Assembly: GCF_963921235.1 (NCBI RefSeq)
Contig: NC_086097.1
Coordinates: forward strand, 41,356,001 to 41,420,000
From: Mobula hypostoma
Taxonomy: Eukaryota
Reading direction: 5' to 3'
Length of the DNA stretch: 64,000 nucleotides
The notes beneath the pieces were generated by a model that was given only the letters and a program-made list of their open reading frames with translations, was not told the DNA's origin and did no database searches. The position numbers were made by a program, and so were the translations under genes. Positions 3,958 through 54,271 of this stretch are shown one piece after another (position 1 is the first letter of the stretch; every line of letters starts with the position of its first letter).

Positions 3958-4204
3958 TCCTTTATACTTGTTCCCAGTGTTTGAGATGAATGCAATCATT
4001 GAGTCTAACCAGGTCTGACATGACAGCAGTAAGTGCAGAAGTTGGTATTCCACAACTTCAGCTGGGGTACAGCACAATGATGAGTTAAATATTGGAGGAC
4101 TTCTGTCATTATCTTCAGTACTTTCCATATTTGTGCTGGAGCTCAGAAATTCCTGGACAGCTCCAGATGGAAACACCAGCATTGGCATTTGGAAGAGCAT
4201 TTTG

Positions 4205-4865
4205 AGTCTGGGGTGAGGAAAACAAACGTGATGTTAGCATTCATTGTAAGAGGATGAGAATATAAAAGCAAGAATATAACATTGATGCTTTATAAAGCAC
4301 TGGTGAGGCCTCACTTGGAGTATTGGGAGCAGTTTTGGACCTCTTATCTTAGCAGGATGGAGAGAGTTCAAAGGAGGTTCACAAAAATTATTCCAGGATT
4401 TGACAACTTGTCATATGAAGAGCTTTTGATGGCTCTGCACCTGTACTCACTAGAATTCAGAAGAATGAGGAGTGACCTGATTGAAGCCTACTGAACGGTG
4501 AAAGGCCTTGATAAAGTGGATGTGGAGAAGTCGTTTCCTGTGATGGGAGAGTCTAAGACCAGAAGACACAGCCTCAGAATAGAGGGGCATCCTTTTAAAA
4601 CAGAGATGAGGAGGAATTTCTTTAGTCAGAGAGTGGTGAATTTGTGGAATTCATTGCCACAGGCAGCTGTTGAGGCCAAGTCTTTACTTATATTTAAGGC
4701 AGAGGCTAATAAATTATTGATTGGTCAGGACATGAAGGGATACGGGGAGAAGGCAGGTGATTGGGGCTGAGAGGAAATTTGGATCAGCCATAATGAAATG
4801 GCAGAGCAGACTCAATGGGCCAAATGGTCTAATTCTGCTCCTATATCTTACGGTCTTATGGTCTT
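4205..4865 (+). mobile_element. CR1 LINE 3' fragment
   Basis: LYKALVRPHLEY, ERVQRRFT and RRNFFSQRVVNLWNSLP motifs; short repeat tail CTTACGGTCTTATGGTCT. Confidence 0.9.
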
Positions 4866-6949
4866 GTGACCCAAGCCATTCATTCAGTTCAATCCACCTC
4901 CTGAACTGCAAAATAAAAGGTAAGATAAGCATGTTAATCAAATTGGGAAAGAAAAGGAGACAAGAAATACTGCTGACCAAATTAACAGTTACAGGAAAGG
5001 GAATGGGATAGGAATGAAGATTACATGAGTGAGAGGCAAGTTACAATCACCACAGAAAAAGGAGCAAAGCTTCTTCAATGTCAACATTTCTGGATAAATG
5101 TGTCTTTAACTTCAACATTAGCTCTGCCTGTTTACATATTATGTGGTTCATTTTCCAATGTTTGAATCTAGTGGCATTTCCCTTTTGCCATTGAACTGAA
5201 GGCACTAGCAATTCAAATCACTATGAGCTTAGCCTGTTTTAAATGTTGATTTTGTTCAGATTCAGTTCACAGTTAATGGAAATTTGCACAACACCAGTAG
5301 GAGTACTTTCTGCGGGGATAAACCAGTACAAGAATTATCAGAAGACAGCAGAAGAAAACTATATACCATTCCCTGAAACTCCCACCTGAACTGACTGCTT
5401 ACCCAAAACTGGGCTACTAAACCCTGGCGAACAGAGGCATTGCTGTTTAAAATGCAAAGTGCAGTGTAAAAAACCTTATATCTCACAAGTTCTTTCAATT
5501 TTGCTCCTATTACGATGTCAAATGAACTTCAGTCGACGTAAGCAGGAGAATTCCCTGTTTGAAAGGGTATTGATGTAGGAAGGCTATCTGAGGGATGTAA
5601 CTCCCCAGTGAGGTTGATCACACTGCCACAGCTTTCAGCCCAGCAACTAGATAAATTAATCGTGGATATAATTTTCAATTTATTCTGTGGCAGTGACAAT
5701 AGCAGGACAAGCAATCAAGTTAAAGCACTCAAGCCCTAGTGGTATGTACTGTGTAGCTTAGTAGGCAGAAATTGGTTTCAGAGCTACATTTGCAGAACAA
5801 TGCCCGGGAGAGACAAGGAGACCATTTTATTAACTTGCTGAGGTTGGTGTTAACAAGATATTAACAATCTCAGAACAGTGGGAAATTCACTATCTTGTCA
5901 GCACCAATGTTCTGTCCACTGCCATTTTGCAGCGATTACTGTTGGGCAGCCAACTTTTCTTATTGCGGGTAACTGAATGTGAAAAGCTGATCCTTGTAGC
6001 AGGAATCGGAGTCTGGTTGTCACTTTGGGACTGAATATAGAAGAAGCTGGATCAGATGCATAAGTGATAATTTTTTTTTTGTTATTATATTGTAAGCAAT
6101 GACTGAAATTGCCAAAACCTCTGACTCCAATGCTGATTGTTAGGCTGTATCTGGATTGGGCCTGGGCATCAGGTGAATGACTAAAGCCAGACCATAAGGA
6201 ATTAGGAACCTCACAACCTGGGAACTGGTAGGTTTGTACTTTGCCTGGTTTCTTCCTTTCTGAAGTGTATATGAGGATGCCCCTTCACTCCTTGCAAGTT
6301 ACTTTTTATAACCTCCTTCCCCTTCAGCCATTCGAGTTGGTAGAACTGAATGCACCTTGTTTGCAATCATAACACACACAACACAAGCAACGTGCTGCAG
6401 CACCAATGAACTAAAATATTAGAAAACAGTAACAGTAATAAATGAAAAAGATAAGCAGCCTGTGTATGCTGCACACAAAAGGAAATATGGATAAGGAAAT
6501 GTTACTGAATAAGTGGAAAGGGATTGAAAGATTTGCTCAAAGGTCAGATATAATGCATTTAAAATATTCATGCCTTGGATAAGTCTATAAAGGTTGATGG
6601 GTGTTTGTATTTTAAATTAATTTCCATCATGGGTAGATGCTCCCTTGGGGCTTTGATTTCTTTGTCATTGAACCAGTATTTTTCAATAACCTGACACCAG
6701 AGCATGTTATGAGAATATGCACTAATCAATGCTATTGGAGAAATCTTTTGAAGAAAGAAACAATCCCCAAAGGTTTGACTTCACAGAGTCTTCATTAACC
6801 TAACCGATAGTAGAAACAATTGAACCAGTGTCAATCTGATGAGGATAGCAAGGAAAAAGTATTAAGGATATCAAAATCAGACAAAGAAGATAGAAAAGGG
6901 TGTCTTCCTGAGACAGTACTAGAGACACTTGATTCTTTGTTCTTGCGAA

Positions 6950-7110
6950 CATGGCAATATCACCACGTTCTGTGGAAAGAGCCCAAAGTTAATGTTTCAT
7001 GATGAAGAACCCAATTCTGATGATGGGTGTTCGATCTGAAACATTAATTCTGATGCTCTTACGATGAATGTGACCTGCCCTGCAGAGTAATTCCAGCATT
7101 TTCTGTTTTT
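6950..7110 (+). mobile_element. Older Penelope pLTR inverted pair with hammerhead core
   Basis: AATT-CTGATGA(7017-7023)-TGGGTGTTCGATCT-GAAA(7038-7041)-CATT-AATT followed by a pLTR-like end (..TTCCAGCATTTTCTG); an inverted partial copy (GTTAATGTTTCA) lies just upstream. Confidence 0.55.
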
Positions 7111-7149
7111 TTTGTTTTAGTTTTCTAGCATTATTTTTTGATATTCATC

Positions 7150-7520
7150 TTAAAGATACAAAGATCAGCTTTATTTATCACATGTACGTTGGGAAATACA
7201 ACGAAATGTGTCGTTTGCCTCACCTTTTCTTTGTGATGCACTGGGGGCAGCGTGAAATGTCGCCACACTTCCGGCACCAACAGGGCATGCTCACAATTCA
7301 CTAAACCTAAATGTACATCTTTTGGAATGTGGGAGGAAGCGGAGCAGTCGGAGGAAGCCCAGGTGGTCACCAGGAGAACATACGCACTCCTTGCAGACAG
7401 TAACAAGAATCGAACCCCAATCAGTGATCATAGAGCGTAGTTCTTAGAACATTACATCATAGTACAGGCCCTTTGGCCCTCTTTGGCACTGTAAAGCAAT
7501 AGTGCTAGCCTCTACTCTGT
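7150..7520 (-). mobile_element. tRNA-derived V-SINE
   Basis: V-domain-like TCTTTTGGAATGTGGGAGGAAGCGGAGCA; (AAAGAT)-type tail at ~7150; interrupted by a short CR1 tail at ~7445-7480. Confidence 0.65.
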
Positions 7521-8484
7521 GCTATACTATTAATTTAATTGGCTGTTATCCTTATTTTGTTTTGTCCTGTGTTCTACATTACAACAAAGAAATAAAGATT
7601 TATAGGTACGTAATACAAAGTGCTTTGCCCATGTCTCACATTCTTTTTACAGAGGTACATTTATTTCTATTTCTCAAAGAATCAAAAAAAGTACATTTAT
7701 TGTCGAAGTATGCATAAATTATACAACTTTGAGATTTGTCCACTTACAAGCAGCCACAAAACAAGAAACCCGAAACAACCCAATTTAAAAAGTAAAGACC
7801 AACACCCAATACATAGAGAAAGAGAAAAAAAAACACAAATCATGCGAACAATCGAAGTGAGCAACAGCATTCCGAACCAGATTGAATTTCTCCACCCGTT
7901 CCTAATACCACATGAGGCATTTGTTCAGCCATTCAGTTAGTTTATGACCAATCTGTAACTTATTTTGTTTGGAAGTGGCCTGCATTTAATTATAACATCA
8001 TGCTCTCTGATTCTGGATGCCCACTGAAAAGGACATTTTCTTGTAATCCCATAGGTTCATTTCAAGCAGGTACACACTCTGGAGTATAAACCATGTATTT
8101 TCAACTTGTTTTTGACAAGTGAACACTTTAACACATCATTGAATTTCAATTGCATCCTTCCCATGTAAATATTTCTTTGCAGAATATCCAGAGTTGAGTG
8201 CACACTCCTGAATTCCACTTTAATTATTTAGTTGCAGTTTGTTCTGGTGCACAAGTTTTCAGTTAATCAAATGTGTGTAAGTCTCAGCATTAAATCAAAA
8301 GGGAAGGACCTTTGATGACACATCTGACCAATCTGAGATAAGTTTTGTATTACCAAAAGCTCAGATACTCAGGATTCAACTCTTTAGGATATAGAAAGAT
8401 TATTGGAAGGAGAAATGTGCAGTGAACTAGCAAAATTTGAAAGCATAAGTTCCTTGGAAAATAGTGTTCTTTCTTCCACTTATG

Positions 8485-8848
8485 GTCGGCACCGTCCCAG
8501 AAACCCCTGACAAACCCGATTAACTCTAACCTGCTGAAGGGTCTCGGCCCGAAATGTCAACTGTACTGTTTTCCATAGATACTGCCTGGCCTGCTGAGTT
8601 CCTCCAGCATTTTGTGTGTGTGACTCTAACCTAATCACGGGACAATTTACAATGACCAATTAACCTGCCCAGTATGTCTTTGGACTGTGGGAGGAAACTG
8701 GAGCACCCGGGGAAAACCCACGCATTCCACGGAGAGGATGTTCTGAAACCCCCTACAGAACGACACCGGAATTGAACCTTGAACCCTGAAGCCTGGAACA
8801 CTCGGAGCTGTAATAGCGTCGCTCTAACCGCTATGCTACTGTGGCGCT
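8485..8848 (-). mobile_element. tRNA-derived V-SINE interrupted by a pLTR insertion
   Basis: V-domain GTCTTTGGACTGTGGGAGGAAACTGGAGCACCCGGGGAAAACCC; on the minus strand A box TAGCATAGCGG and B box GGTTCAATTCC. Confidence 0.8.
8531..8622 (+). mobile_element. Solo ~92-bp Penelope pLTR/hammerhead-derived insertion with TSD
   Basis: CTGCTGA-AGGGTCTCGGCCC-GAAA-TGTC-AACTG plus pLTR end; direct repeat ACTCTAACCT at 8523-8532 and 8623-8632 (the last 2 nt of the left copy overlap the element start). Confidence 0.85.
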
Positions 8849-9120
8849 CAGTGTTGATGGGATATTTAAGAGCCTTAAAGTTTCATCTGTAGGTAGACCA
8901 GACCTCAAAAGTACAAAGGACAGGGATCATGGCTGGCAAACTATGAGCTTTGTATCAGGTCAGAGTTCTTAATCATCGAACATCCTTTATGTCAGGCATT
9001 CAAGGGCTGTGCTGCAAATTTGAACGCAGTGCTGAATTGATGTTGACTGCTTCTGTCCCTAATGAATTCATTTCTATTTTTAGTTCTCCTTTGGGTAGGA
9101 GCTTTGGATATTTGGCCATT

Positions 9121-13200: not shown

Positions 13201-13474
13201 ACCAAAACAATTAATGTAATTTGTAGTTAACTTATTTTTTAATGATTAAATATGTTGATAGTTTAAAATATTTTTAGAACTTTAAAAACTTTGCAAACGA
13301 CCTAGAAATTCCAAACCTCAGGCAAATAGATCAAGATAATGTTGATAATTTCGTTTTTAGCTTTACCGAATTGCCAAAGGCACTTCAAGAAGACGTTAAT
13401 TTATTTTGATGGATTTTATGCTAATTATTTGTTACTGATATCCTTGGCACATAACCTAATCTCACATTTAAGAT

Positions 13475-13639
13475 CACACACAAAATGTTGGAGGAACTCA
13501 ATCTATGGAAAAAAAAGTACAGTCAGCAGTTTTGGGCCTGCTGGAGTCCTGCTGAAGGGTCTTGGCACGAAACGTCGACTGTACTTTTTTCCATAGATGC
13601 TGCCTGGCCTGCCGAGTTCCTCAAGTATTTGTGTGTGTA
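13475..13639. mobile_element. Inverted pair of Penelope pLTRs forming a ~165-bp palindrome with a hammerhead-like motif
   Basis: ACACACAAAATGTTGGAGGAACTC...ATCTATGGAAAAAAAAGTACAGTC mirrored by GACTGTACTTTTTTCCATAGAT...GAGTTCCTCAAGTATTTGTGTGTGT; + strand motif AGTC-CTGCTGA-AGGGTCTTGGCAC-GAAA-CGTC-GACT (13545-13580). Confidence 0.8.
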
Positions 13640-15024: not shown

Positions 15025-16253
15025 AAGCCTGATAGAGTTCTTTGAGGAGGTGACCAGGCATATAGATGAGGGTAGTGCAGTGGATGTGATCTATATGGAT
15101 TTTAGTAAGGCATTTGACAAGGTTCCACACGGTAGGCTTATTCAGAAAGTTAGAAGGCATGGGATCCAGGGAAGTTTGGCCAGATAGATTCAAAATTGGC
15201 TTGCCTGCAGAAGGCAGAGGGTGGTGGTGGAGGGAGTACATTCAGATTGGAGGATTGTGACTAGTGGTGTCCCACAAGGATCTGTTCTGTGACCTCTCTT
15301 TTCGTGATTTTTATTAACGACCTGGATGTGGGGGTAGAAGGGTGGGTTGGCAAGTTTGCAGATGACACAAAGGTTGGTGGTGTTGTAGATTGTGTAGAGG
15401 ATTGTCAAAGATTGCAGAGAGACATTGATAGGATGCAGAAGTGGGCTGAGAAGTGGCAGATGGAGTTCAACCCGGAGAAGTGTGAGGTGGTATACTTTGG
15501 AAGGACAAACTCCAAGGCAGAGTACAAAGTAAATGGCAGGATACTTGGTAGTATGGAGGAGCAGAGGGATCTCAGGGTACATGTCCACAGATCCCTGAAA
15601 GTTGCCTCACAGGTGGATAAGGTAGTTAAGAAAGCTTATGGGGTGTTAGCTTTCATAAATCGAGGGATAGAGTTTAAGAGTTGCGATGTAATAATGCAGC
15701 TCTATAAAACTCTGGTTAGGCCACACTTGGAGTATTGTGTCCAGTTCTGGTCACCTCACTATAGGAAGGATGTGGAAGCATTGGAAAGGGTACAGAGGAG
15801 ATTTACCAGGATGCTGCATGGTTTAGAAAGTATGCATTATGATCAGAGATTAAGGGAGCTAGGGCTTTACTCTTTGGAGAGAAGGAGGATGAGAGGAGAC
15901 ATGATAGAGGTGTACAAGATAATAAGAGGAATAGATAGAGTGGACAGCCAGCGCCTCTTCCCCAGGGCACCACTGCTCAATACAAGAGGACATGACTTTA
16001 AGGTAAGGGGTGGGAAGTTCAAGGGGGATATTAGAGGAAGGTTTTTTACTCAGAGAGTGGTTGCTGCGTGGAATGCACTGCCTGAGTCAGTGGTGGAGGC
16101 AGATACACTAGTGAAGTTTAAGAGACTACTAGACAGATATATGGAGGAATCTAAGGTGGGGGCTTATATGGGAGGCAGGGTTTGAGGGTCGGCACAACAT
16201 TGTGGGCCGAAGGGCCTGTACTGTGCTGTACTATTCTATGTTCTATGTTCTAT
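15025..16253 (+). mobile_element. Young 5'-truncated CR1 LINE (RT domain to 3' tail)
   Basis: MDFSKAFDKV, GVPQGSVL, FADDTK and LVRPHLEYCVQFWSP; 298-aa ORF 15289-16185; (TTCTATG)n tail. Confidence 0.95.
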
Positions 16254-22189: not shown

Positions 22190-25100
22190 CTGTATACATC
22201 TTTCCTTCAGGTACATAACCAAAACTGCACTCAATACTCCAAATTAGGCCTCACCAACATCTTATACAACTTCAACATAACATCTCATCTTCTGTACTCG
22301 GTACATTGATTTATAAATGCCAATGTGCCAAAAGCTTTGTTATGATCCTATCTACCTGTGGCACCACTTTCAATGAACTATGGACCTGTATTCCAAGATC
22401 CCTTTGTTCTGCCAGACTTCTCAGTGCTCTGCCGTTCACTGTGTAAGACCTACTCTGGTTGGTCCCACTGAAATGCAAAACCCCGCATTTGTCTGCAATA
22501 AATTCCATCAGCCATTTCTCAGCCCATTTTTTCAGCTCATGCAGATCCCTCTTCAAGCCATGATAGCTTTCCTCACTGTCCACTACACCCCTAATCTTGG
22601 TGTCATCCACAAATTTGCTGATCCAGTTAACCACAGTATCATCCAGATCATTGATATAGATGACAAACAACGAAGAAACCAGCACTAATCCCTGTGGCAC
22701 ACCACTATTCACAGGCCACCAATCAAAGAAGCAAGCATCTACTACCACTCTCTGGCTTCTCCCACAAAGCCAATGTCTAATCCAATTTACTACCTTATCT
22801 TGAATGCTGAACGACTGAACCTTCTTGACCAGCCTCCCATGTGGGTCTCTGTTAAAAGCCTTGCTAAAGTCCATGCAGACAACATCCACTTCCAATAACT
22901 TTCCCATAGCTGATGTCAGACTCACCGGCCTATAATGTCCTGGTTTATGTTTAGAGCTTTTTAAATAGCAGAACAACATTGGCAATCCTTCAATCCTCTA
23001 GGTACCTCTTTCATTATGGATCTTTTAAATATCTCTACTAGGGTTCCGGTGGTTTTTGTACTTGCCTCCCCTAGGGTCCAAGCGAACACCTTGTCAGGCC
23101 CTGGGAGACACACTGATTTGCCTCAGAGTAGAAAATACCTCCTCCTCTGTAATCTGTGGAGGGTCCATGAAGTTGTTGTTACTTTGCCTCACTTCTATAG
23201 ATTCTGTATCTGTCTCCTGAGTAAATACAGATGCAAAGATTGCATTCAAGATCTTCCCCATCTGTTTTGGCTCCTCATATGGGTTACCATTTTTGTCTTC
23301 TAGTAGACCAATTTTGTCCCTAACAGTACTTTTGCTCTGAACATACCTGTAGAATTCCTTAGGATTCTCCTTCAGCTTGTCTGCTAGGTCAACTTCATGT
23401 CTTCTTTTAGCCTTCTGGATTTATTTCTTAACTGTAATTCTTATTCTTCATAAGCACCTCGTTTGTTCCTACTTGCCTGTACCTGCTATGCACCTCCTTT
23501 TTTCTCTTAAACAGGGGGTCTCAATATCTCTTGAAAACCAAGGTTTCCTACACTTGTTATCTTTAATTTTATTCTGACAGGTATATACAAGCTTTGTACT
23601 CTCAAAATTTCAATTTTGAAAGCCTGCCACTTACCAAGTACACCTTTGCCAGAAAACAGCCTATCCCTATCCCAAATGAACTTGCCAGCTCATTTCTGAT
23701 ACCATCTGTATTAGCCTTTTTCCAATGTAGAATCTCAACCAGCATACCAGACCTATCTCTTTTCATATTTACTTTGAAATTAATGACATTGTGGGGTCAG
23801 TGGATGCAAAGTTTTCCCCTACACAAACTTTTGTCATCTGTCCTATCTCATTCCCTCATAGGAGATTTAGTATTGCAGTCTCTCTCGTTGGGACTTCTAT
23901 GTACTGATGAAGGAAACTTCTCTGAACACATTTGACAAACTTTATCCCATCGAGTCTGTCTTGCTGGGTGTTAGGGATAAATTTGCCCCGCTGAGGAAGA
24001 TAATGAATGGTAGAGTGAAAGAACCATGGGTGACTAGTGAGGTGGAAATTCTAGTCAGGTGGAAAAAGGCAGCATACATGAGGTTTAGGAAGCAAGGATC
24101 AGATGGGTCTATTCAGGAATATAGGGTAGCAAGAAAGGAGCTTAAGGAGGGGCTGAGGAGAGCAAGAAGGGGGCATGAGAAGGCCTTGGTGAGTAGGGTA
24201 AAGGAAAACCCCAAGGCATTCTTCAATTATGTGAAGAACGAAATGATGACAGAATTGAAGGTAGGACCAATTAGAGATAAAGGTGGGAAGATGTGCCTAG
24301 AGGCTGTGGAAGTGAGTGAGGTCCTCAATGAATACTTCTCTTCAGTATTCACCAATGAGAGGGAGCTTGATGAAGGTCAATATAAGTGAGGTTGATGTTC
24401 TAAAGCATGTTGATATTAAGGGAGAGGAGGTGTTGGAGTTGTTAAAATATATTAGGACGGATAAGTCCCCGGGGCCTGACAGAATATTCCCCAGGCTGCT
24501 CCACGAGTCGAGGGAAGAGATTGCTGAGCCTATGGCTAGGATCTTCATGTCATCGTTGTCCATGGGAATGGTACTGGAGGATTGGAGGGAGGCGAATGTT
24601 GTCCCCTTTTTCAAAAAAGGTAGTAGCGATAGTTGGGGTAATTATAGACCAGTAAGCCTTACATCTGTGGTGGGAAAGCTATTGGAAAGGATTCTTAGAG
24701 ATAGGATCTATGGGCATTTAGAGAATCATGGTCTGATCAGGGACAGTCAGCATGGCTTTGTGAAGGGCAGATCGTGTCTAACAAGCCTGATAGAGTTCTT
24801 TGAGGAGCTGACCAGGCATCTAGATGAGGGTAGTGCAGTGGATGTGATCTACATGGATTTTACTAAGGCATTTGACAAGTTTCCACATGGTGGCTTGTTC
24901 AGAAAGTCAGAAGGCATGGGATCCAGGGAAATTTGGCCAGGTGGATTCAGAATTGGCTCGCCTGCAGAAAGCAGAGAGACATGGTGGAGGGAGTACATTC
25001 AGATTGGAGGATTATGACTAGTGGTGTCCCACAAGGATCTGTTCTGGGACCTCGACTTTTCGTGATTTTTATTAACGACCTGGATGTGGGGGTAGAAGGG

Positions 25101-26820
25101 AGGGTTGGCAAGTTTGCAGACAACACAAAGTTTGGTGGTGTTGTGGATAGTGTAGAGGATTGTCGAAGATTGTAGAGAGATATTGATAGGATGCAGAAGT
25201 GGGCTGAGAAGTGGCAGATGGAGTTCAACCCGGAGAAGTGTGAGGTGGTACACTTTGGAAGGACAAACACCAAGGCAGAGTACAAAATAAATGGCAGAAT
25301 ACTTGGTAGTGTGGAGGAGCAGAGGGATCTGGGGGTACATGTCCATAGATCCCTGAAAGTTGCCTCACAGGTAGATAGGGTAGTTAAAAAAGCTTATGGG
25401 GTGTTAGCTTTCATAAGTCGAGGGATAGAGTTTAAGAGTCGCGGGGTAATGATGCAGCTCTATACATCTGTGGTTAGGCCACACTTGGGTACTGTGTCCA
25501 GTTCTGGTCGCCTCACTATAGGAAGGATATGGAAGCATTGGAAAGAGTACAGAGGAGATTTACCAGGATGCTGCCTGGTTTAGCGAGTATGCATTATGAT
25601 CAGAGATTAAGGGAGCCAGGGCTTTACTCTTTGGAGAGAAGGAGGATGAGAGGAGACATTTTAGAGGTATACAAGATATTAAGAGGAACAGATGGAGTGG
25701 ATAGCCAGCACCTCTTCCCCAGAGCACCACTGCTCAATACAAGAGGACATGCTTTAAGGTAAGGGGTGGGAATTTCAAAGGGGATATTAGAGGAAGGTTT
25801 TTTACTCAGAGTGGTTGTTGCATGGAATGCTCTGCCTGAGTCAGTGGTGGAGGCAGATACACTGGTGAAATTTAAGAGATTGCTAGACAGGTATATGGAG
25901 GAATATGAGGTTCGGGGTTATATGGGAGGTAGGGTTTAAGGGTCGGCATAACATTGTGGGCTGAAGGGCCTCTACTTTGCTGTACTATTCTATATTTTTT
26001 GTTCTATGAGTCATTTTACAGAATAGGATTCCCAGACAATATGTGGAAAGTTAAAATCACCTACTATAACAACCTTATGTTTCTTGCTACAGTCTGCAAT
26101 CTCTTTTGGTACTTACATGGACCATGACCTCCGGCTGTTCGCCCTCCCATTTAAGAATACTGAGGCCTCAGTCTGAGATGTCCAGGCCCTGACACGTGGG
26201 AGGCAACATACCATCCAGGAATCTCATTCTCACCTGCAGAACCTCCAGTTCGTTCCCCTAACTAACTAACTAATCCCCTATCACCACCGTGTGCTTCTTC
26301 TCCCCTCTTCCCTTCTGAGTCACAGAGTCGGACTCGGTGCCAGAGACCTGACCACTGTGACTTTTCTCTGTTAAGTCATCCCCCCGGACAATATCCCAAG
26401 TGATATACCTTTTATTGAGGGGAATGGCCTCAGGTGTACTCTGAACTGGCTCCCTAACCCTTCTTGACTATCACCCATCTTCCTGTGTCCTTCACTTTGG
26501 GTGTAACTATTTCTCTCTCTGTCCCATCTATCACCCCTTCATCCTCCCAAATGATCCAGAGTTCATCCAATTCCAGTACCAGCTCCAGCTCCTTAACATC
26601 GATTTTTAGAAATTGCATCTAGTAGTTCTTCTCGCAGCTGTAGCCATCAGGGACACTGGAGATCTCCCTGCTTCCCATATCCTGCAGGAGGAACATTCCA
26701 CTATCCTGCCTGGTATCTCTATGTCCTAACTAAGCAAATGTAAAGAAGTGATGGAAAAAAAGACAACCTGGAGTTTTCCTTTTCTTTACTTTCTCTGACT
26801 GAAGCCTCAAAGAGCTAAAG
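22190..26820 (-). mobile_element. Older, long CR1 with internal deletions (pieces 22190-23956 and 26013-26820), including ORF1 remnants
   Basis: YRPVSLTS, MDFSKAF, GVPQG and KFVDDTK in ORF 22311-22985; VECSSCRIWE zinc-finger-like ORF1 start near 26670-26705; joins across the + strand CR1. Confidence 0.85.
23957..26007 (+). mobile_element. Young 5'-truncated CR1 LINE with 5-bp TSD
   Basis: KENPKAFFNYVK, KSPGPD, NYRPVSLTSVVGK, QHGFVKGRSCLT and GVPQGSVLGP; GAGTC at 23952-23956 and 26008-26012; same subfamily as 15025-16253. Confidence 0.95.
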
Positions 26821-28377: not shown

Positions 28378-28526
28378 GCAAAGCTTATCCTCCTGAATTC
28401 TATTATGATACACCCAACCCACTTTGGCAAAACCGAGCCCGTGTCTATTCGTACATGCTACAGTGGACCCAGATGAACCCTAATGCTGTTGACCGAATCC
28501 TAGCATACCGGTTGGGGATTAGGCAG
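28378..28526 (+). CDS. MDGA2: Internal coding exon (149 nt, phase 1 to phase 0) of MAM domain-containing GPI anchor protein 2; start of the FN3 domain
   Basis: Acceptor TCTCTCTTTTTCTCAG (AG 28376-28377), donor CAG|GTATGA (GT 28527-28528). Translation (G)[49 protein letters not shown] closely matches recalled human MDGA2 [50 protein letters not shown]. Confidence 0.93.
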
Positions 28527-32305: not shown

Positions 32306-34499
32306 AAGTGAGCTTGATATGGTCGCAAAGTGAGTTCCCAGACAGCAGAAGATGTCTGCAGCTCCACAGCAGCCACATTTCCATCCCACTGACCTGCAGA
32401 ATCTCGACTGTATGTATGGGCTACACATAAATTCATCACTTGTAACCCAGGGAAGACCTATATTAGCCTGAAAACAGTAATGGAGTAAGAAATAGTAACA
32501 GGGCACCTGATTGTAATAGGATGGCATTTTGCATGAGGAGAAATTAAGAAGACTGGTCTTGTGTTTAGGAGAATAGGTGGTGAGCTCAGTGACTGTTATG
32601 GAGCCCCACAGGTAAAAAGATGTGACCATGTTTATGCTGGTGAACACTAGGAGTCATGGACTCAAAATGAGGGGTCCGCCGCTTAGGACAGAAAGAGAAG
32701 AAATTTCTTCAGACAGAGGTCAATGCATCGTCGGAATTCTCCACTCAAAGGGCTGTGAAGGGTCTGTTGCCTAGTATAACTATTAACAAAATCAAAGAAA
32801 AAGTGATAGTACGGGCAAATAGCATTGAGGTTGAAGATATAGCTTGATCTTTCTTACTGCTAGAACAGTCACAAGGGGCCAAATGGTCTTCTCCTGCTTT
32901 TACTTCTTGAGTTCTTGGGGGTCAGGATGAAAAAAAAACAGAACTAATATTTCAGATTGATATGTCATCGAGATGTACACTTCACAAGAGACATCTCCAT
33001 GTACACAGGAGAAGTGACGTTCTCTCCGATACATTCAAATTAGATATGAAACTGAGGCTTTAGGTGCATTTACAAGATCCAATTATACCCTTAGAAGATA
33101 TGCAATATTTATCCTCGAATCAAGAAAATAAAAGAATGTGGCATTGTGTTGATCAAAACTTGCTGTCCACAAGATCTCTGTCACTGACCCTGTACTGCAA
33201 AATACCACTACACTTCACAAGGGGTAAACTTCAGATGATTTAATGGTTTTCCTTTTTAAAGCTGCTGTCCTCCCTTTCAAATCTTCCATCAGCATTTCTC
33301 TCAGAAAATATCCTTAACTTCCCCATTCTTGAATGTTACTACCCTGTCTTCAACCTTACTGTAATTTTCACAATCGTTGACTAACCTAGTCTTCCAATTG
33401 TGTGCTTCCAGCTAGCTTTCTGTCCATACCACAGTATTTGGAAAGCTCCACTCATATTCTACAACGACATTTCATGTGATTGTGACTAAAGTAATATAAT
33501 CATCCTTGACCTTTCACCCAGTCTGCAGCTTCTGACATGTTTGACACCCCGTCTTCTCCAGCTTTGCCTGGTGTGGCATCACCCTCACTGCTTCTCATAT
33601 TTGTTGATTCACTGCCACCTCACCAATTGCCTGCCATGGCTTCTATTCCCAAATCCATGTTATTAGAACTAGAACATTATCATATCATACAGACACGTCA
33701 GCCAAAAATGTTGTGCCAACCTTTTAACCTACTCTGAGAGCAATCAAACCCTTCCCTCCTCCACTTCCATTTTCTATCGTCTGTGTGCCTATTTATCCCC
33801 TGCTTCAAGTCCATGATATTTCTGACCTAAAGTTTGACCATCTCTGTGTCAACTCCCACACGCACACGTGTGTCACACAGCTTTAATCCACTGTCTATAT
33901 TGTTAGATTGTTTGTCAAACATCCAGTTCTGGATGAGCAGAAATTTCCTTCAACTAAGTGCTGGGCCAACTGAAGCCAATGATTCTCATCTCTGTTGCAT
34001 GCATTCTGTTTCCTGGCCTCTATGCCTGGCGATAGTTTAAAACTAAATTTGGGTACATGCATTACTGGTGTCACACTTAACCCCACAATAAGCTCCTGAC
34101 CACAATTCCCTATTACCACTGAGCTGTGTATTATTTCTACAACACTGAAAGACTCTGCAAGTGCCTCAGCCCATCTTCTGTTGAAACTCTTATACGTACC
34201 TGTTGGGCTCTTGTTTGCCTTTAACTATGAATATTCCAATGCCTTCCTGACTGGCCCTTCTCATTCAGAACTCTGCAGCCAATGTCCTCAGCTCTATAGC
34301 CCCATTCACCCACCATTCTTCTTTGTGGTGCTGATTAAGTAATATCTCAATCTTAGAGACTCCATCTCTATTTTCAAATCCATCCACAGTCTCACTCTTC
34401 CATATTTAATAGATTTTCAGGTCTGGGGATATCTGTTTTTCTTTGTTTCTGGTCCCAATTTCATTGCTCCATGAAAAAAGACAACACCATATTGAGGTG

Positions 34500-35725
34500 T
34501 CTCTTGCAAAAACGCCATCCCCTTCTCGCAATTCCTCCGTCTCCGCCGCATCTGCTCTCAGGATGAGGCTTTTCATTCTAGGATGAGGGAGATGTCTTCC
34601 TTTTTTAAAGAAAGGGGCTTCCCTTCCTCCACTATCAACTCTGCTCTTAAATGCATCTCCCCCATTTCACGTACATCTGCTCTCACTCCATCCTCCTGCC
34701 ACCCCACTAGGAATAGGGTTCCCCTGGTCCTCACCTACCACCCCACCAGCCTCCAGGTCCAACATATTATTCTCCGTAACTTCCGCCACCTCCAACAGGA
34801 TCCCACCACTAAGCACATCTTTCCCTCCCGCCCTCTCTCTGCATTCCGCAGGGATCGCTCCCTACACAACTCCCTTGTCCATTCGTCCCCCACATCCCTC
34901 CCCACTGATCTCCCTCCTGGCACTTATCCGTGTAAGCGGAACAAGTGCTACACATGCCCTTACACTTCCTCCCTTACCACCATTTAGGGCCCCAAACAGT
35001 CCTTCCAGGTGAGGCAACACTTCACCTGTGAGTCGACTGGGGTGATATACTGCGTCCGGTGCTCCCGATGTGGCCTTTTATATATTGGCGAGACCCGACG
35101 CAGACTGGGAGACTGCTTTGCTGAACATCTACGCTCTGTCCGCCAGAGAAAGCAGGATCTCCCAGTGGCCACACATTTTAATTCCACATCCCATTCCCAT
35201 TCTGACATGTCTATCCACGGCCTCCTCTACTGTAAAGATGAAGCCACACTCAGGTTGGAGGAACACACCTTATATTCCGTCTGGGTAGCCTCCAACCTGA
35301 TGGCATGAACATCGACTTCTCTAACTTCCGCTAAGGCCCCACCTCCCCCTCGTACCCCATGTGTTACTCATTTTTATGCACACATTCTTTCTCTCATTCT
35401 CCTTTTTCTCCCTCTGTCCCTCTGAATATACCTCTTGCCCATCCTCTGGGTTCCCCCCACCTTGTCTTTCTTCCCGGACCTCCTGTCCCATGATCCTCTC
35501 GTATCCCCTTTTGCCTATCACCTGTCCAGCTCTTGGCTCTGTCCCTCCCCCTCCTGTCTTCTCCTATCATTTTGGATCTCCCCCTCCCCCACCAACTTTC
35601 AAATCCCTTACTCACTCTTCCTTCAGTTAGTCCTGACGAAGGGTCTCGGCCTGAAACGTCGACTGCACCTCATCCTACAGATGCTGCTTGGCCTGCTGCG
35701 TTCACCAACAACTTTGATGTGTGTT
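34500..35725 (+). mobile_element. Penelope-like element, 5'-truncated (RT thumb/linker, GIY-YIG endonuclease, pLTR) with 14-bp TSD
   Basis: AIPFSQFLRLRRICS, CKRNKCYTC, VIYCVRCSRCGLLYIGET and PDGMN; one stop (~34985) and one frameshift (~35265); ACCATATTGAGGTG at 34486-34499 and 35726-35739. Confidence 0.93.
35628..35665 (+). ncRNA. Minimal type-I hammerhead ribozyme motif in the Penelope pLTR
   Basis: Stem I TAGTC(35628-32)/GACTG(35661-65); core CTGACGA (35633-39); stem II AGG/CCT or GGGT/GCCT; GAAA (35653-56); palindromic ACGT stem III; GUC cleavage triplet ending at 35660. Confidence 0.75.
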
Positions 35726-37499
35726 ACCATATTGAGGTGCGTTGATTGTAAGCTGTGTATTTTCTTCTGAACCCATCACATCTCCTTCCCTTTATTTTTG
35801 TGTGTAAAATTCTCCTTAAAAGCTGTTTGATCAAATTTTCGGTCATTTGCTCTTATACCTCCTCACACATCATGGTGCCAAATTTTATTTAGCATTGTAT
35901 TTATGAAGAACCTTCTGTCGACATTAAAATGTTTTGAGTAGCCCTTAAAACATGGTGAAGATATGAATTATTTCTTTCTGGGAATGTTAATAATTTCAAA
36001 CTTTAAAACATAATTTCTTTTCAATTTGTAAATATCATTCTGCTTCTTAGACTCAGCATATTTTTTTTGTACAGACTGCACGGAAGATTGTAGAAATGTG
36101 ATTCGAATCCATTTTACTTATATAGATTTGTTTTTTTTCCATTAAGCTTAATATTAGATATTGGAAAGGTTTGTATTTCCTTTGCACAGAATGCCACAGA
36201 TCTAAATAAGATTGCTTTCTTATTGCTATTTTACATTTTCCAAAATATCAAAACAAGAGAAAAATGAGGAACAATAAAAACCCGTCAAGCACACTCTTCC
36301 CAGTCACCTATGCATTATTGATTTCTCAGAATTTATTTATTCCCATGAGAGGTCAATAACCAGCAACACAACCTCTGTGTAAATAAAAATGGCATTTCTC
36401 CTTAGCCCCAGGTGACAATTCAAGAAAACATTAGGATATCAATCTAACATGAAAATGTGAGAATTATTCAAAACTGGCTGCTTTATTCCATAAATACTAT
36501 TTCCATGATCCCAATAGGATTAGAACAATAGTATTTGGTAGAATTCTTCTGGCAGTGTAATTCAATTCTTGTCATGTCAGATATTCATCAAAAATTTATG
36601 GAGAACATTAAGATATGTATGTACAAATTCTCCAGATAAGAATTAAGGAACTTGAGTGAGAAATATTTGAAAGACTGAAGTTATAACCTGCAGAAATTTC
36701 TTAACATTTGAAATTCAGTTTTGACAAGGGTCTCCCAGTTCTGGTTTCTTGGTTATGTCGACCCCAGTCATGTTGTGATGCTTAGCTCTGGGATTCTCTC
36801 ACTTCACTGTTCTACATCTATCTCCTCCTGCAAGTCATTTCTTAACGACTATTACTTTGACTAAACTTGTCTCTCTTTTTTAATATAATCCAGAATTAAT
36901 TTTGTTTGATTATTCTTTTATTAAGCAACTTAAAATATTTTGCATCAGTAAAGATATTTTAATGCAGTTTAATGTTTGAAGAATCATAGCTTTCTGTTCC
37001 TTCTCATATATTCTAATAAATGTAAGAAATGTAGTTCTAAAGAATAATTACAAATTATAACCATCGTATTTGCAGGGATTAGATTGCCTTCCTTTTCTTA
37101 GTTAAATAGAGATGATAATGGAGGCCAGGATCATTCCCTTTAAAAACCCTCAGTAGTGTTCTGGCTGCTGGTATTTAATCAGTTGATCATTTCTTGGAGA
37201 GCCATTTTGTTCTGCCACTAGACTCCTCATAGAGTTCAACAGTGTTTACTACAGGTACTTTGCATACTTGTTAATTAAATTGAATTAAATATTAATATAT
37301 TATTATTTCTAATTGTTTTTGAGCTTTCATAATTGTTTCCCCTTTTTAACAATTGTCTTATAATGCACTGTTTAGTTTTTAGTCATTTGTGAATGCTGAC
37401 GAATGTCAAACACATTCACTGATGTGCAATCTCCTTGCCAGCTTTGACAGGTTCAGAGCTGAACCTACTCTCAAAGCAGTTCAACAGACAATCAAGAGC

Positions 37500-39564: not shown

Positions 39565-42370
39565 GAACTCACCTCTCCTACGGTCAGCACCTGATGTCCA
39601 GGACAATCCAGGTGGGTCGGTGAACTCCTCTGAGCAATGGATCCGAGATGAAACTGGACGGCCACTGGTGACCTCTCCTCTGGGCTGTACCCTTTCCAGT
39701 CAACCAGATACTGCACACCCTATCCAGGGATACATGAATCTATCAACTGGCAAACCGTATACATTGGACTATCCTCCACCATCCTTGGTTTTGAAAGTGC
39801 AGTCTCACGTGGGTTGTGTGGTCTATGAACAATGGCGGCTTGAGGCAGGACACATGGAAGGTAGATGTGATCCTGAGGGATGGTGGCAGCTGGAGATGGT
39901 AAACGACTGGGTTGGTGCAATGGGTAATCTGGTAATTGGGTTGAGAGCTTGTGGGAGTCGGTGCTCAGGGGCAGATCTCAAGTGAACAGCCAAGCGCAGT
40001 CTCCAGGCTGGAGTAGCAGCAGTAGGTGCGATGGGAAGCTGGGATGGCCTTCTGTGTCCTCTTCCAAGCCTTCCAGCATCAGCTGACCAGGGCCTGGATA
40101 GATAGGACCTCCACTGCTGGCTCCTCTGCAGGGAACAACAGGGGTTGGTAGCCATGAAGCATTTCAAAGGTTGCCATGCTTGTGGCAGAGGAGGTGCAGG
40201 GCCAGAGCAGATGCTTCTTCCATGTGGAAGGGTTAGAGGTGGCAAAGCATCGCCGAAACTTCTCCACTGCTGATTGGTTCTGACTGGCCGTTTGTCTGCA
40301 GATGATGGCCAGAGGACAAACTCACTGAGGTGCAGAGGAGGGAGCAGAACGCTCTCTGGAAGCTAGAGATGAACTGTGGAACCCGGTCCAACACAATGTC
40401 CTGAGGGAAATAGTGGAGGTGAACTACCTGTGGACGACCAGGTCTGCCATCTCAGCAGCTGACGGAGGTTTGGGGAGGGGGAGCAATAAAGTTAACTGCT
40501 TTGGAGAACCGGTCTATCACCATTGTAATCACCATGGCCCCATCAGAAGGTGACAAGCCTGGATGAAATGCATGGCTATGTGGGACCACAGGCACTAGCG
40601 GAGCAGTCGGACCTACAGGAGCCCAGAGGACCTCTGTTTGGAGGAATTGGATTGGGCATATTTAGGGCAGGCAGATGAACTGATGAATATCTATGATCTT
40701 GCTGGGCTACCAGAACCATTATTGCAGAAAACCCAGAGTCTGTCCTGCATCTGGATGGCTGGAGAAGGCTGAAGAGTGGACCACAGGAGAGGGTTGAGGA
40801 GTGGGCCTCTGGAGTGCCTCAGAGTGCACGGCTGCTGACATCATATACATGTGGATGACAGGTGTGTCTGCCGGAGCAGGCCTGTGCTCTAGGGCCTGGT
40901 GGATCTGGTTCTCATGATCCCAGATGATCCTGACAAGGATCTCCAAGGATTATAATGATGGACTGAGGGTTGATTTCTGTTTCTATTGGGTCAAACTGTC
41001 ATGACAAGGCTTCCACCTCAGTGTTCTTGGAGCCTGGTCAGTAGGAGATGGTGAAGTTGAATTGCTCGAAGAGCATTCAGCAAGCTTGACATGAGTTGAG
41101 TTGGTGCGTCTGTTGTATGGATACGAGGTTCTGGTGGTCAATCCAGGTCAGGAAGGTCTCGGAGTTTCTCATCTGACAATGTCTCCATGCCTCTGAGGCC
41201 CACTTAATTTCAAGTAGCTTCCTGTCTCCTACTCCGTAACGGCACTGTGTAGAAGGTGGCAGGTGGGTGTGTTCTTCCTGTCCAGTCCTCGCTGGGAGAT
41301 GATGGCCCAAGCACCGATATGACATGAATCCACCTCTTCCACAAAATGTTCAGAGTAGTTCAAATGGTGGAGAATGGGAGCAGTGGTGAAGCACCTCTTG
41401 AGCTCCTCGGAAGCATGGTCTGCGGAGCCATTCAATGATGGTGTGCACTTTGGGTCCATGGTTATGCCTTGGGATGAAAGGAAACGACTGGGGTGTGTGG
41501 AGCTGGCACTTTTCTAACTTGTAGCACAGCTGGTTCTTGAGGAGAAGCTTAAGGACTGAATGAACATGAGATGTGATCTGGCAGTCCTTGGATAAGATGA
41601 GGAATTTGTCATGGTAGATGAACACATACCTGTGTAGCATGTCTGATAGGATCTTGTTGATGAAGTCCTGGGAAAATGGCTGGACGATAGGAAAGCTCGA
41701 AGGCAGACCAGCCGGGCCAGTAGATTTTATGAATTCCATCTTCCATTCATCTCTATGGAGAGTGTGGATCATGTTGTATGCACTCCGTAGATCCAGTTTG
41801 GTGAAGATCTTGGCCCTGCAGTGTTTCAAATGCACTATCCAACAAGGGTTTCCTCCATCTCCATAGACTTACGGAGTGAAGTCAGCTGAGGTTGCAGGCA
41901 GGAGATTTGGCAGATGGGTCCCCAATTCAGTGGTGAACCGGATGACCAGGTGAAGTGATGGTCATGAGTGGACAGCCAGGAGTAATCCAAGATGAGAGGA
42001 GTGTTGAGTGAGTCAATCAAAAGAAATTGCATAGACTCAGGGTGCACAGGCTGTGTATGCACTTTAACCATCCCGGGCACCAAGGGACGCCCGTCAATGC
42101 AGAAGAGGTGAGAGATAGGTTCGGTAGGGAGTCCAAGTTGCACAACAGAGTCTGGTCCTGAAAGCTGCCTGCTGCACTGGAACCCAGCAGAGTCTCCTGT
42201 GCATGTAAAGCCATTAGGGTGTGGAGGAGAACGGAGAAGGTGAAATGGGCTATGGCACTGGATCGAGACACCGGGGTTGTTTACCAGATGAAGGGCCCCT
42301 CCTCTGTAAGTGGTGGTGCTACTTTCCCAGACGCAGTGGGCATTTGATGCCTGGGTGATAGGCAGCACCA
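39565..42370 (-). mobile_element. Chromodomain-bearing Gypsy (sushi-like chromovirus) pol and gag C-terminus, pseudogenised
   Basis: RT AKIFTKLDLRSAYN; RNase H FTTAPILHH..EVDS and TWIDHQNL; integrase WSHIAM...IDRFSKA (~40495-40590); chromodomain QYLVDWKGYSPEERS. Confidence 0.9.
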
Positions 42371-45339: not shown

Positions 45340-46470
45340 ATTTCATGAAACAAGGACAGAAAAGCCTGAAAAATTCAGCCAGTCAATCAGCAGCTGTGGA
45401 AGGAAAAAGAAAGATCATGTCTTGTGTCAGTGATCCTTTCTCTGTACTTGGGAAAGAGTGGTTTATAGTTTTCAAAGCAAAGCTCTGGGGGAGGATGAGT
45501 TGCAACAGAAAATATTATGTGAATATTAGCTGAGACAGATCAGGTGAAATGGAGCATGTATACTGACTATTATAAAATGGAGTATGAAATGGAACATGTA
45601 AGTGCAAGAAATTGAGAGGCAGGAGTAGGTCATTAGATCATTTAGGCCTGGCCCAACTATTCAGACTAATCATTGCCAATCTATAGTGGCCTCAACTCCA
45701 CTTCTATGGTGTACTTCTTGAAGTTTCAAGTCTTTATCCATCATAATGACATAATCGTGATAATGGGCCACAATGAGAGAACAGATTATTTGACTTTGGG
45801 AAATTCAATGTTCATCCCAACAGGCCACAACCTCTAGATGAAAGATGAGTTGTTGTTCCTCTAGTTTATGTTGTGCTTAATTATGGTAGTGGAGAAGCCA
45901 TAGAGAGTCAGTTGTTGTCAGAATAACAGTATGATTGAGAATTAAAGTGGCATGCAACAGGGAACTCAGATGTTCCATATGTTCCACAAGATGTGCATAG
46001 ATGTTCCACAAAGCAATCACCCAATCTGCATTTGACCTCCATGTAGAATAGGCCACATTATGAACACCGAATGCCGTTAATTAAATTGGAAGGAGAGCAA
46101 GTGAATCACTGCTTCACCTGGAATGAATGTTTGGGTTCCTGGGTGGTGGGGAGGGAAGTGGTGAATGGACAGGTGTTGCATCTTCTCCAGATGTGTTGCA
46201 AGGTGCCATGGGACAGGGACTGGTGGCTGAGGGTGGGAGAATGGATTAGAGAATCACAAAGTGAACTGGCACTATGAAGTGCAAAATGGAGAGGAGAGGG
46301 AGTCATTCTGTGCTTTCCAAACTAACACCCCTCTATCCTTTTCCAGTTGTGTGGAAAGGTTTCTGACCTGAAATATTAACTGGTTTCTCTTTTCATAGAT
46401 GCTGCTTTGATTAGCTGAGTTCTCCTGGCATTTCTGTTTCCATTTCAGATTGCAGCATCTCCAGTTTTAT
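45340..46470 (-). mobile_element. Old Penelope element with inverted pLTRs at both ends
   Basis: RRCNTCPFTTSLPTTQEPKHSFQVKQ (ORF 46106-46306) is homologous to 34940-35020; minus pLTR at ~45345-45440 and plus pLTR at ~46340-46470 (stem CCAGTT/AACTGG kept, core decayed). Confidence 0.7.
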
Positions 46471-49200: not shown

Positions 49201-49440
49201 GTAGAGATATTGGTGTGCCTTCTTCGTGATTGCATTAATGTGTTAGCATAGTTGTTTGGCCTCTGAGATGTTGACAGTCTGCAACTTGAAGCTGCTCACC
49301 TTTCCACAGTTGATCCCTGAGTGAGGACCGGTGTGTGTTCTCTCAACTTCCCCTTCCTGAAGTCTGCAGTAGGTTCTTTGGTCTTGCTGACGTTGCATAT
49401 GAGCTTGTTGCAAAATCGGTCAGGCAGCCAATCTATTTCA

Positions 49441-49560
49441 CTTCTATACAGTTCCTTATCACTATCTGAACTTTTATACAGTTCCTCATTATCATCTGAA
49501 CTTTTATGCAGTTCCTTATCACCATCTGAACTTTTATACAGTTCCTTATCACCATCTGAG
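49441..49560. repeat. Minisatellite, 4 x 30 bp, derived from Rex RT coding sequence
   Basis: CTTTTATACAGTTCCTTATCACCATCTGAA-like unit four times; reads (SDGDKELYKS)n on the minus strand. Confidence 0.9.
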
Positions 49561-53972: not shown

Positions 53973-54021
<49 letters not shown>

Positions 54022-54271
54022 CTCTCCCTCTCTCTCCTCTCCCCCTCTCCCTCTCTCTCCTCTCCCCCTCTCTCTCCTCCTTCCCTCTCTCTCTCCTCCC
54101 CCTCTCTCTCTCCTCCTTCCCTCTCTCTCTCCTCCCCCTCTCTCTCCTCCCCCTCTCTCTCCTCCCCCTCTCTCTCTCCTCCCCCTCTCTCTCTCCTCCC
54201 CCCTCTCTCTCTCCTCCCCCCTCTCTCTCTTCCCCCCTCTCTCTCTGTCTCTCCTCTCCCTCTCTCTCTCT
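53973..54271. repeat. ~300-bp compound (CT)n/CCT polypyrimidine tract
   Basis: Almost exclusively C/T on +, with recurring CTCTCTCTCCTCCCCC units. Confidence 0.97.

What the first reader, a model, noticed from the sequence alone, without database searches (positions are those of the whole stretch)
35628..35665. Core-intact minimal hammerhead ribozyme motif, sense to the MDGA2 pre-mRNA
Seen: TAGTC-CTGACGA-AGGGTCTCGGCCT-GAAA-CGTC-GACTG, i.e. a 5-bp stem I, complete CUGANGA/GAAA core, short stem II, palindromic ACGU in place of stem III and a GUC site. Established: Penelope-like elements carry minimal type-I hammerheads in their pLTRs, proposed to act as dimers. Inference: it lies ~7.1 kb downstream of the exon on the MDGA2 coding strand, so it would be transcribed in the pre-mRNA and could cut the intron.
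Basis: partly seen in the sequence, partly recalled or inferred. Interest (0 to 1): 0.7.

Follow-up and report, generated by a model that had tools for sequence, protein, structure and literature searches.

The report
Young Penelope insertion's hammerhead, MDGA2 intron
A complete small self-cutting-RNA motif is really there, but it is the tail of a broken Penelope-like jumping gene that is missing from the same spot in a closely related species, so it is a known kind of motif and most likely an inert passenger, not a control switch of the MDGA2 gene.

Summary
The motif is real: a minimal type-I hammerhead at 35628-35665 (+), the only hit of my descriptor in the window, with none in 300 shuffles. 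It lies 7,102 bases after an MDGA2 exon on the same strand. It sits 294 bases after the stop codon of a 5'-truncated, broken Penelope-like element (34500-35725; GIY-YIG endonuclease, Neptune/Nematis-type cysteine linker) flanked by a perfect 14-bp target-site duplication. One contig of a related species (flanks about 98% identical) runs across the site without the element, so the insertion is likely young and not a conserved MDGA2 feature. The family is very abundant in these ray genomes. Such motifs are published: one tested monomer did not cut, dimers cut weakly, and one needed the element's protein. No intact partner lies in the window, and folding models bury the core. Most likely an inert passenger. 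No cleavage or transcription was tested. The scan noted this family before, in this genome (81 notes fit) and in sharks. New member of a known kind.

The parts
35628..35665 (+). Minimal type-I hammerhead motif (stem I 35628-32/35661-65; core 35633-39; extra A 35640; stem II 35641-52; GAAA 35653-56; ACGU palindrome 35656-59; predicted cut 3' of 35660)
34500..35725 (+). 5'-truncated Penelope-like element insertion, 1,226 bp
   Evidence: TSD; laid depth rises in bin 34455-34525 and falls in bin 35733-35803; empty site in run X5 record 17
34486..34499 (+). Left target-site duplication, 14 bp; its last 2 bases also fit the element (microhomology at the 5' junction)
   Evidence: loose ends before 34498 continue as element coding sequence (table 7, compared with P0001)
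35726..35739 (+). Right target-site duplication, 14 of 14 identical to the left
34500..35334 (+). Broken PLE ORF remnant: region after the RT core, linker and GIY-YIG endonuclease; in-frame stop at 34985-34987, frameshift near 35264, terminal stop 35332-35334
34931..34957 (+). CX4CxxC linker motif (fits the CX2-5CxxC linker of Neptune and Nematis PLEs)
   Evidence: translation; definition in PMC8557442 passages
35335..35725 (+). Non-coding 3' end (pLTR part): pyrimidine-rich tract, hammerhead, 60-bp terminal segment
35614..35644 (+). Predicted competing hairpin: the upstream pyrimidine tract pairs with the core and the 5' side of stem II
   Evidence: prediction only
28378..28526 (+). MDGA2 coding exon (AG before, GT after); host-gene context

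Best explanation
The motif is the minimal hammerhead in the 3' end of a broken, 5'-truncated Penelope-like retrotransposon copy that likely inserted recently into an MDGA2 intron, and at this spot it is most likely inert. Shown: the motif, the ORF remnant upstream of it, the 14-bp duplication, and the empty site in a related species. Inferred from the literature on the family: in the active element the motif would cut only when two copies pair through the ACGU palindrome (each copy's core cutting the partner's GUC site) or with help from the element's own protein, and would process tandem element transcripts. Inferred for this locus: reverse transcription stopped early and left a lone 3' copy. 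The core looks intact because the copy is young, not because the host keeps it. With no intact partner in cis and a competing hairpin, the pre-mRNA would rarely or never be cut, and rare slow cuts would likely not stop splicing.
For: Perfect 14-bp TSD around 34500-35725. ORF remnant 91% identical over 258 residues to a Mobula hypostoma protein, and 44-48% to a sea-urchin protein (weak RVT_1 and GIY-YIG hits) and an unnamed protein of the same type. GIY-YIG E=0.003, below Pfam's cut-off. Run X5 (organism B) record 17, 3,094 bases, depth 42.4, aligns to 34100-34485 and goes on with its next letter at 35726-36200, so it has one copy of the 14-mer and no element; flanks differ at 14 of 861 positions plus 3 small indels. 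Run X1 record 1 crosses the left junction with 0 differences. 263,921 of 29,410,082 records read in X1 were laid on the stretch, almost all on the element; X5 248,272 of 34,216,178; X15 81,346 of 20,913,867 (not a copy number). Ten remnant sites of this 3' end in the window, 5 sense and 5 antisense, and 1 of the 10 passes the descriptor. Stems I and II have pair probability of 0.01 or less in 4 of 4 flanked constructs; forcing the hammerhead fold costs 7.2-7.8 kcal/mol. PMC4209133: the tested single motif showed no cleavage, dimers and trimers low activity. PMC11167929: no cleavage without PLE protein, and no RNA-seq reads beginning or ending at the site.
Against: No cleavage assay and no locus-specific RNA data. 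The folding figures come from a nearest-neighbour model without tertiary contacts or protein, and I ran no known-active control, so they may also condemn active PLE hammerheads. The empty site rests on one contig from one run of one other species; precise loss in that species or a shared polymorphism is not excluded. Covariation among 8 window copies is not above shuffles (94 of 500 reach the score). Only 40 of 176 differing places were listed, so I cannot say whether the G-U pair at 10.1-11.1 is family-typical or a decay of this copy. The family is abundant enough that partners in trans may exist.
Confidence: 0.82

Rival explanations
1. The motif does cut the MDGA2 intron measurably, through a partner RNA of the same family in trans or with the element's protein, but without effect on MDGA2 output.
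For: Core, extra A, palindrome and GUC site are intact. G-U at 10.1-11.1 stands in 8 of the 56 published motifs by my reading of Fig. S3 text. Protein-assisted cleavage is shown for an Anolis PLE. The family is very abundant. Slow intronic cuts allow splicing (as cited).
Against: Competing folds; the active dimer scores -11.5 against -30.3 kcal/mol for the best dimer; published dimers are weak; no cleaved ends were seen in Anolis RNA-seq.
Confidence: 0.11
2. The motif is a host-relevant element that limits or reshapes MDGA2 transcripts by cutting the intron.
For: Sense orientation, intact core, long intron. Domesticated intronic hammerheads are described in amniotes (PMC6155905 passages).
Against: Absent from the orthologous site in organism B. 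Part of an ordinary TSD-flanked insertion. Lacks a stable stem III. No Rfam hammerhead match. No intact partner in cis.
Confidence: 0.03
3. In this ray family the motif is kept as a protein-binding or reverse-transcription landmark and is no longer a catalyst at all.
For: Hammerhead mutants did not affect insertion in vitro for the Anolis element. Two window copies share an A6C core change, which is reported to give low activity (PMC3088659 passage). A 90-bp copy with a 10-bp TSD starts at the motif's 5' edge, not at the cut site.
Against: All catalytic core positions and the palindrome are kept here. An older, diverged copy at 7005-7106 keeps the core and has two stem I pairs changed on both sides, though this is not statistically significant.
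Confidence: 0.04

Closest known systems
Minimal hammerheads (min-HHR) in the pLTRs of metazoan Penelope-like elements (Cervera and De la Pena 2014, PMC4209133; read parts 1-2 of 4 and supplement parts 1-2 of 3)
   Same: Type I, core CUGANGA/GAAA, extra nucleotide between 9 and 10.1, palindromic 15.2-16.2 with no stem III, short stem I, lone 3' copy in a 5'-truncated element. The Acropora digitifera Neptune motif in Fig. S3 has the same core, a 4-bp stem II, a 4-nt loop and a CGUC site.
   Different: No shark or ray is among the 56 motifs of Fig. S3. The pair 10.1-11.1 is G-U rather than the consensus G-C (G-U in 8 of 56 rows). The family seems far more abundant than the 4,000-9,000 motifs reported for coelacanth and Xenopus; I have no count of my own.
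Poseidon element PAc of Anolis carolinensis (Frangieh et al. 2024, PMC11167929; read parts 1-2 of 4)
   Same: Vertebrate EN+ PLE with a pLTR hammerhead and an optional 3' tail. Other family copies here also run on beyond 35725 (table 7).
   Different: Poseidon lacks the cysteine linker that this copy has. PAc was tested in vitro (protein-assisted cleavage); this motif is untested and its ORF is broken.
Domesticated intronic type-I hammerheads of amniotes (RECK, CTCL, DTNB introns; PMC6155905, 12 of 13 passages)
   Same: Type I hammerhead in an intron of a vertebrate gene.
   Different: Those are conserved across species at the same site. This one is absent from a close relative and still sits inside its parent element.
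Non-LTR retrozymes (bioRxiv 10.64898/2026.07.22.740005; read part 1 of 5 and 9 passages)
   Same: PLE-derived type-I hammerhead; reported in the one chondrichthyan sampled; 42-44% of Xenopus copies are intronic.
   Different: Retrozymes are non-coding tandem repeats. This is a single copy attached to an ORF remnant.

Membership tests
PLE minimal hammerhead (min-HHR) | Core CUGANGA and GAAA with a UH cleavage site | tested here: met
PLE minimal hammerhead (min-HHR) | Type I topology with short stem I and a stem II | tested here: met
   5-bp stem I, 4-bp stem II; pairing possible by sequence, covariation not significant
PLE minimal hammerhead (min-HHR) | [quoted passage not shown] | tested here: met
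   A at 35640; feature from PMC4209133
PLE minimal hammerhead (min-HHR) | G10.1 paired with 11.1 (G-C in the consensus, G-U in some published members) | tested here: met
   G-U here, so it departs from the consensus G-C; G-U in 8 of 56 rows of Fig. S3. 3 of the 4 closest window copies have C at 11.1
PLE minimal hammerhead (min-HHR) | Palindromic 15.1-16.1 segment in place of stem III | tested here: met
   ACGU 35656-35659
PLE minimal hammerhead (min-HHR) | Located in the terminal repeat of a PLE | tested here: met
   294 bases after the ORF stop, inside the TSD-bounded insertion
PLE minimal hammerhead (min-HHR) | Self-cleavage as dimer or with PLE protein | not testable with these tools
   needs an in vitro assay
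EN+ Penelope-like element | C-terminal GIY-YIG endonuclease downstream of RT in one ORF | tested here: met
   GIY-YIG E=0.003, 18.2 bits against cut-off 22.6. The RT core is truncated away here; a collinear homologue, P0012, has weak RVT_1 and GIY-YIG hits
Neptune clade | CX2-5CxxC linker between RT and EN (shared with Nematis) | tested here: met
   34931-34957; definition
Neptune clade | RT phylogeny groups with Neptune rather than Nematis | not tested
   no RT core in this copy and no labelled references at hand; Neptune is inferred from its reported presence in vertebrates
Domesticated intronic hammerhead (RECK type) | Conserved at the orthologous intron position across species | tested here: not met
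   empty site in run X5 record 17 (one contig, one species)
Domesticated intronic hammerhead (RECK type) | Match to a curated hammerhead covariance model | tested here: not met
   no Rfam hammerhead family listed
Non-LTR retrozyme | Non-coding tandem repeat with at least two hammerhead units | tested here: not met
   no tandem array here; single motif attached to an ORF remnant

The most novel reading that the evidence does not exclude
In ray genomes flooded with this Penelope family, lone intact hammerheads in sense introns are switched on in trans by abundant family RNA or by the element's protein, so that element activity nicks many host pre-mRNAs. This young MDGA2 insertion, with an empty allele in a close relative, is a natural test pair for an effect on a neural gene.
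Probability: 0.05. Interest if true: 0.65.

Novelty: new member of a known kind. Interest (0 to 1): 0.13.

Why it matters
As it stands, little: it is one more copy of a motif described in 2014. Its use is practical. A young insertion with exact boundaries and an empty allele in a relative is a clean specimen for the open question of whether lone PLE hammerheads ever cut host transcripts in vivo. If they do, a very abundant element would couple its own activity to breaks in host pre-mRNAs.

Tried and rejected
No whole genome is held for this window, so I made no genome-wide count, orientation test or partner search beyond the window. Rfam: no hammerhead match; SCARNA7 and four other sub-threshold hits rejected as chance. 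Exact-pattern scans found 0 loci in viral contigs and 0 in metagenome contigs. The protein-based scan of metagenome contigs gave 173 pattern matches, none confirmed. So no outside DNA copies were obtained for covariation. Covariation on 8 window copies: 4 of 11 pairs with a change on both sides, 163 of 500 shuffles reach that, so not significant; several rows are truncated inside the motif, and all rows were kept. Expression: no RNA holder listed. Run X9 (RNA is a guess) covers the element but not the flanks, which is no evidence either way. Contigs cannot show RNA ends. Run X15 gave no piece across either junction among those listed. Loose-end piles at 35629 (520 in X1, 355 in X15) and 35665 (378 in X5, 360 in X15) match the motif's edges and suggest that it is the shared island among subfamilies. 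I give this little weight: only 24 of 5,249 rows were shown, similar piles occur at 35034 and 35265, and short insertions starting at the motif would give the same picture at 35629. TSD search around six other copies: a convincing one only at 8.5 kb. Lunse et al. (RNA Biol, dimer cleavage) is not held; I saw only its title in a reference list. Literature searches for a chondrichthyan PLE hammerhead: 0 papers; one listed and not read. The library lacks most subscription papers and repeat databases, and the 2026 preprint's supplements, which name its chondrichthyan species, were not seen, so 'not in print' is not claimed.

Full report
Observation. They fit a minimal type-I hammerhead: 5-bp stem I, core CUGACGA, one extra A, 4-bp stem II closed at the core by G-U, GAAA, the palindrome ACGU in place of stem III, and a GUC site with predicted scission 3' of 35660. 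The core pattern alone is at chance in the window (8 matches, 7.37 expected). The whole descriptor hits only here, and in 0 of 300 shuffles; it was written after seeing the motif. Rfam's hammerhead models do not detect it. The MDGA2 exon at 28378-28526 (+) is confirmed by 100% identity to four shark MDGA2 proteins. Neither neighbouring exon is in the window, so the motif is inferred to lie in an intron of more than 35 kb, on the transcribed strand.

What it belongs to. Upstream on the same strand is a broken ORF. It matches a Mobula hypostoma protein at 91% over 258 residues, and a sea-urchin and an unnamed protein at 44-48%. It holds a CX4CxxC linker and a GIY-YIG endonuclease (E=0.003, under Pfam's cut-off), with an in-frame stop at 34985-34987 and a frameshift near 35264. 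The motif starts 294 bases after the ORF's last stop. The unit 34500-35725 is flanked by an identical 14-bp repeat. This is the anatomy of a 5'-truncated endonuclease-bearing Penelope-like element. The linker places it with Neptune or Nematis (PMC8557442, 12 of 25 passages). Neptune is my inference from its reported presence in vertebrates (preprint passages); no tree was made. The host is inferred to be a myliobatiform ray from the named protein hits.

Age and abundance. Four public runs were laid on 34100-36200 (all contigs). In X5 (organism B) one contig of 3,094 bases covers 34100-34485 and continues with its next letter at 35726, so it carries one copy of the 14-mer and no element. Its flanks differ from the window at 14 of 861 positions plus three small indels. 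In X1, which may be the source of the window and so is not independent, a contig crosses the left junction without a difference. The simplest reading is an insertion after the two lineages split. It rests on one contig, and polymorphism or precise loss is not excluded. Summed depth in X1 is 2-8 million over the element against 0-37 in the flanks, and 263,921 of 29,410,082 records were laid. The tool warns that this is no copy number, but the family is plainly very abundant. Within the window a profile built from five copies finds 12 hits at E<=1, that is ten sites plus two inverted arms; five sites are sense and five antisense to MDGA2. Only this one passes the descriptor. The others are truncated inside the motif or carry core or palindrome changes.

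How it most likely works. Established for the family: Cervera and De la Pena (PMC4209133; main text parts 1-2 of 4, supplement parts 1-2 of 3) describe these motifs in PLE terminal repeats, mostly as single copies from truncated elements. The tested monomer showed no cleavage, and dimers and trimers showed low activity. Frangieh et al. (PMC11167929, parts 1-2 of 4) found that the Anolis motif cut only with the element's protein, was dispensable for insertion in vitro, and left no read ends in RNA-seq. Inferred from geometry: in a dimer each copy's core cuts the partner's site, so cutting at 35660 needs a second RNA with an intact core and matching stem I. None lies in the window. The nearest sense remnants are 10.7 kb downstream (core decayed) and 22, 27 and 29 kb upstream (two with A6C, one with a broken palindrome). 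Predicted: the isolated 38-mer folds with its core locked in a 4-bp helix (probability 0.98-0.99). These models ignore tertiary contacts and protein and had no active control. Even a cut might not matter: slow hammerhead cleavage in an intron allowed splicing, whereas a fast HDV ribozyme did not (Dye 2006, Fong 2009, seen only as cited in five passages of PMC2995048). I put 0.82 on an inert passenger, 0.11 on measurable but neutral cutting, 0.03 on a role in MDGA2, and 0.04 on a family-wide non-catalytic role.

Results against or short of my reading. The core is fully intact. The G-U pair at 10.1-11.1 is not disqualifying, as it stands in 8 of the 56 published motifs by my reading of the Fig. 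S3 text. Whether it is family-typical could not be read, since 136 of 176 differing places were not shown. Covariation among eight window copies is not above shuffles, so the fold is supported by its match to the published consensus, not by my own comparative test. Nothing here shows or excludes transcription or cleavage.

Comparison and novelty. It meets every sequence feature of the PLE minimal hammerhead that I could test; activity is untested. It fails the test for a domesticated intronic hammerhead (conservation at the orthologous site; PMC6155905, 12 of 13 passages) and for a retrozyme (tandem, non-coding). No shark or ray is in the 2014 alignment, and three searches found no paper on a chondrichthyan PLE hammerhead, but a 2026 preprint reports hammerhead-bearing retrozymes in one chondrichthyan (part 1 of 5 and nine passages; supplements not seen). 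A review (PMC6765202, 12 of 16 passages) and PMC3088659 (five passages) were used for the dimer model and for A6C. Earlier notes of this scan, looked up after my reading was set, describe the same family in this genome (81 notes fit, 8 shown) and in two shark windows. They are unchecked AI notes and are not counted as support.

Verdict. Observation confirmed; interpretation partly supported; new member of a known kind; interest 0.13. The boldest open reading is activation of lone intronic copies in trans, probability about 0.05.

Noticed in passing
window 45356-46437: Older PLE relic in the classic inverted arrangement: endonuclease remnant on the - strand (46351-45789), a decayed 3' end at 45448-45356 (-), and a second 3' end pointing the other way at 46345-46437 (+).
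   Followed up: partly
window 8523-8632: 90-bp mini-insertion of the family's 3' end with a 10-bp TSD (8523-8532, 8623-8632). It starts at the 5' edge of the hammerhead core, not at the cut site, and carries A6C.
   Followed up: partly
window 13467-13638 and 2158-2276: Short copies with an inverted arm (hairpin-like units). The 13.5-kb copy also carries A6C, so A6C may mark a subfamily.
   Followed up: partly
window 7005-7106 (+): Diverged older hammerhead remnant with intact core and two stem I pairs changed on both sides relative to 35628-35665; its palindrome is broken.
   Followed up: partly
proteins P0004, P0005, P0006: Ray gene models named as a kinase-domain isoform, a mucin-2 isoform and a receptor-transporting protein contain this PLE endonuclease sequence; these are annotation artefacts or exonised element pieces.
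   Followed up: no
window 41350-41865 (-): Reverse-transcriptase remnant (Pfam RVT_1, E=8.2e-07); looks like an LTR-retrotransposon relic (recalled resemblance, not tested).
   Followed up: no
window 15025-16253 and 24783-26007: Two 1.2-kb copies, 92% identical, of another interspersed repeat, with further older pieces elsewhere in the window.
   Followed up: no
window 49440-49559 and 53974-54271: A 30-bp unit repeated four times, and a TC-rich tract.
   Followed up: no
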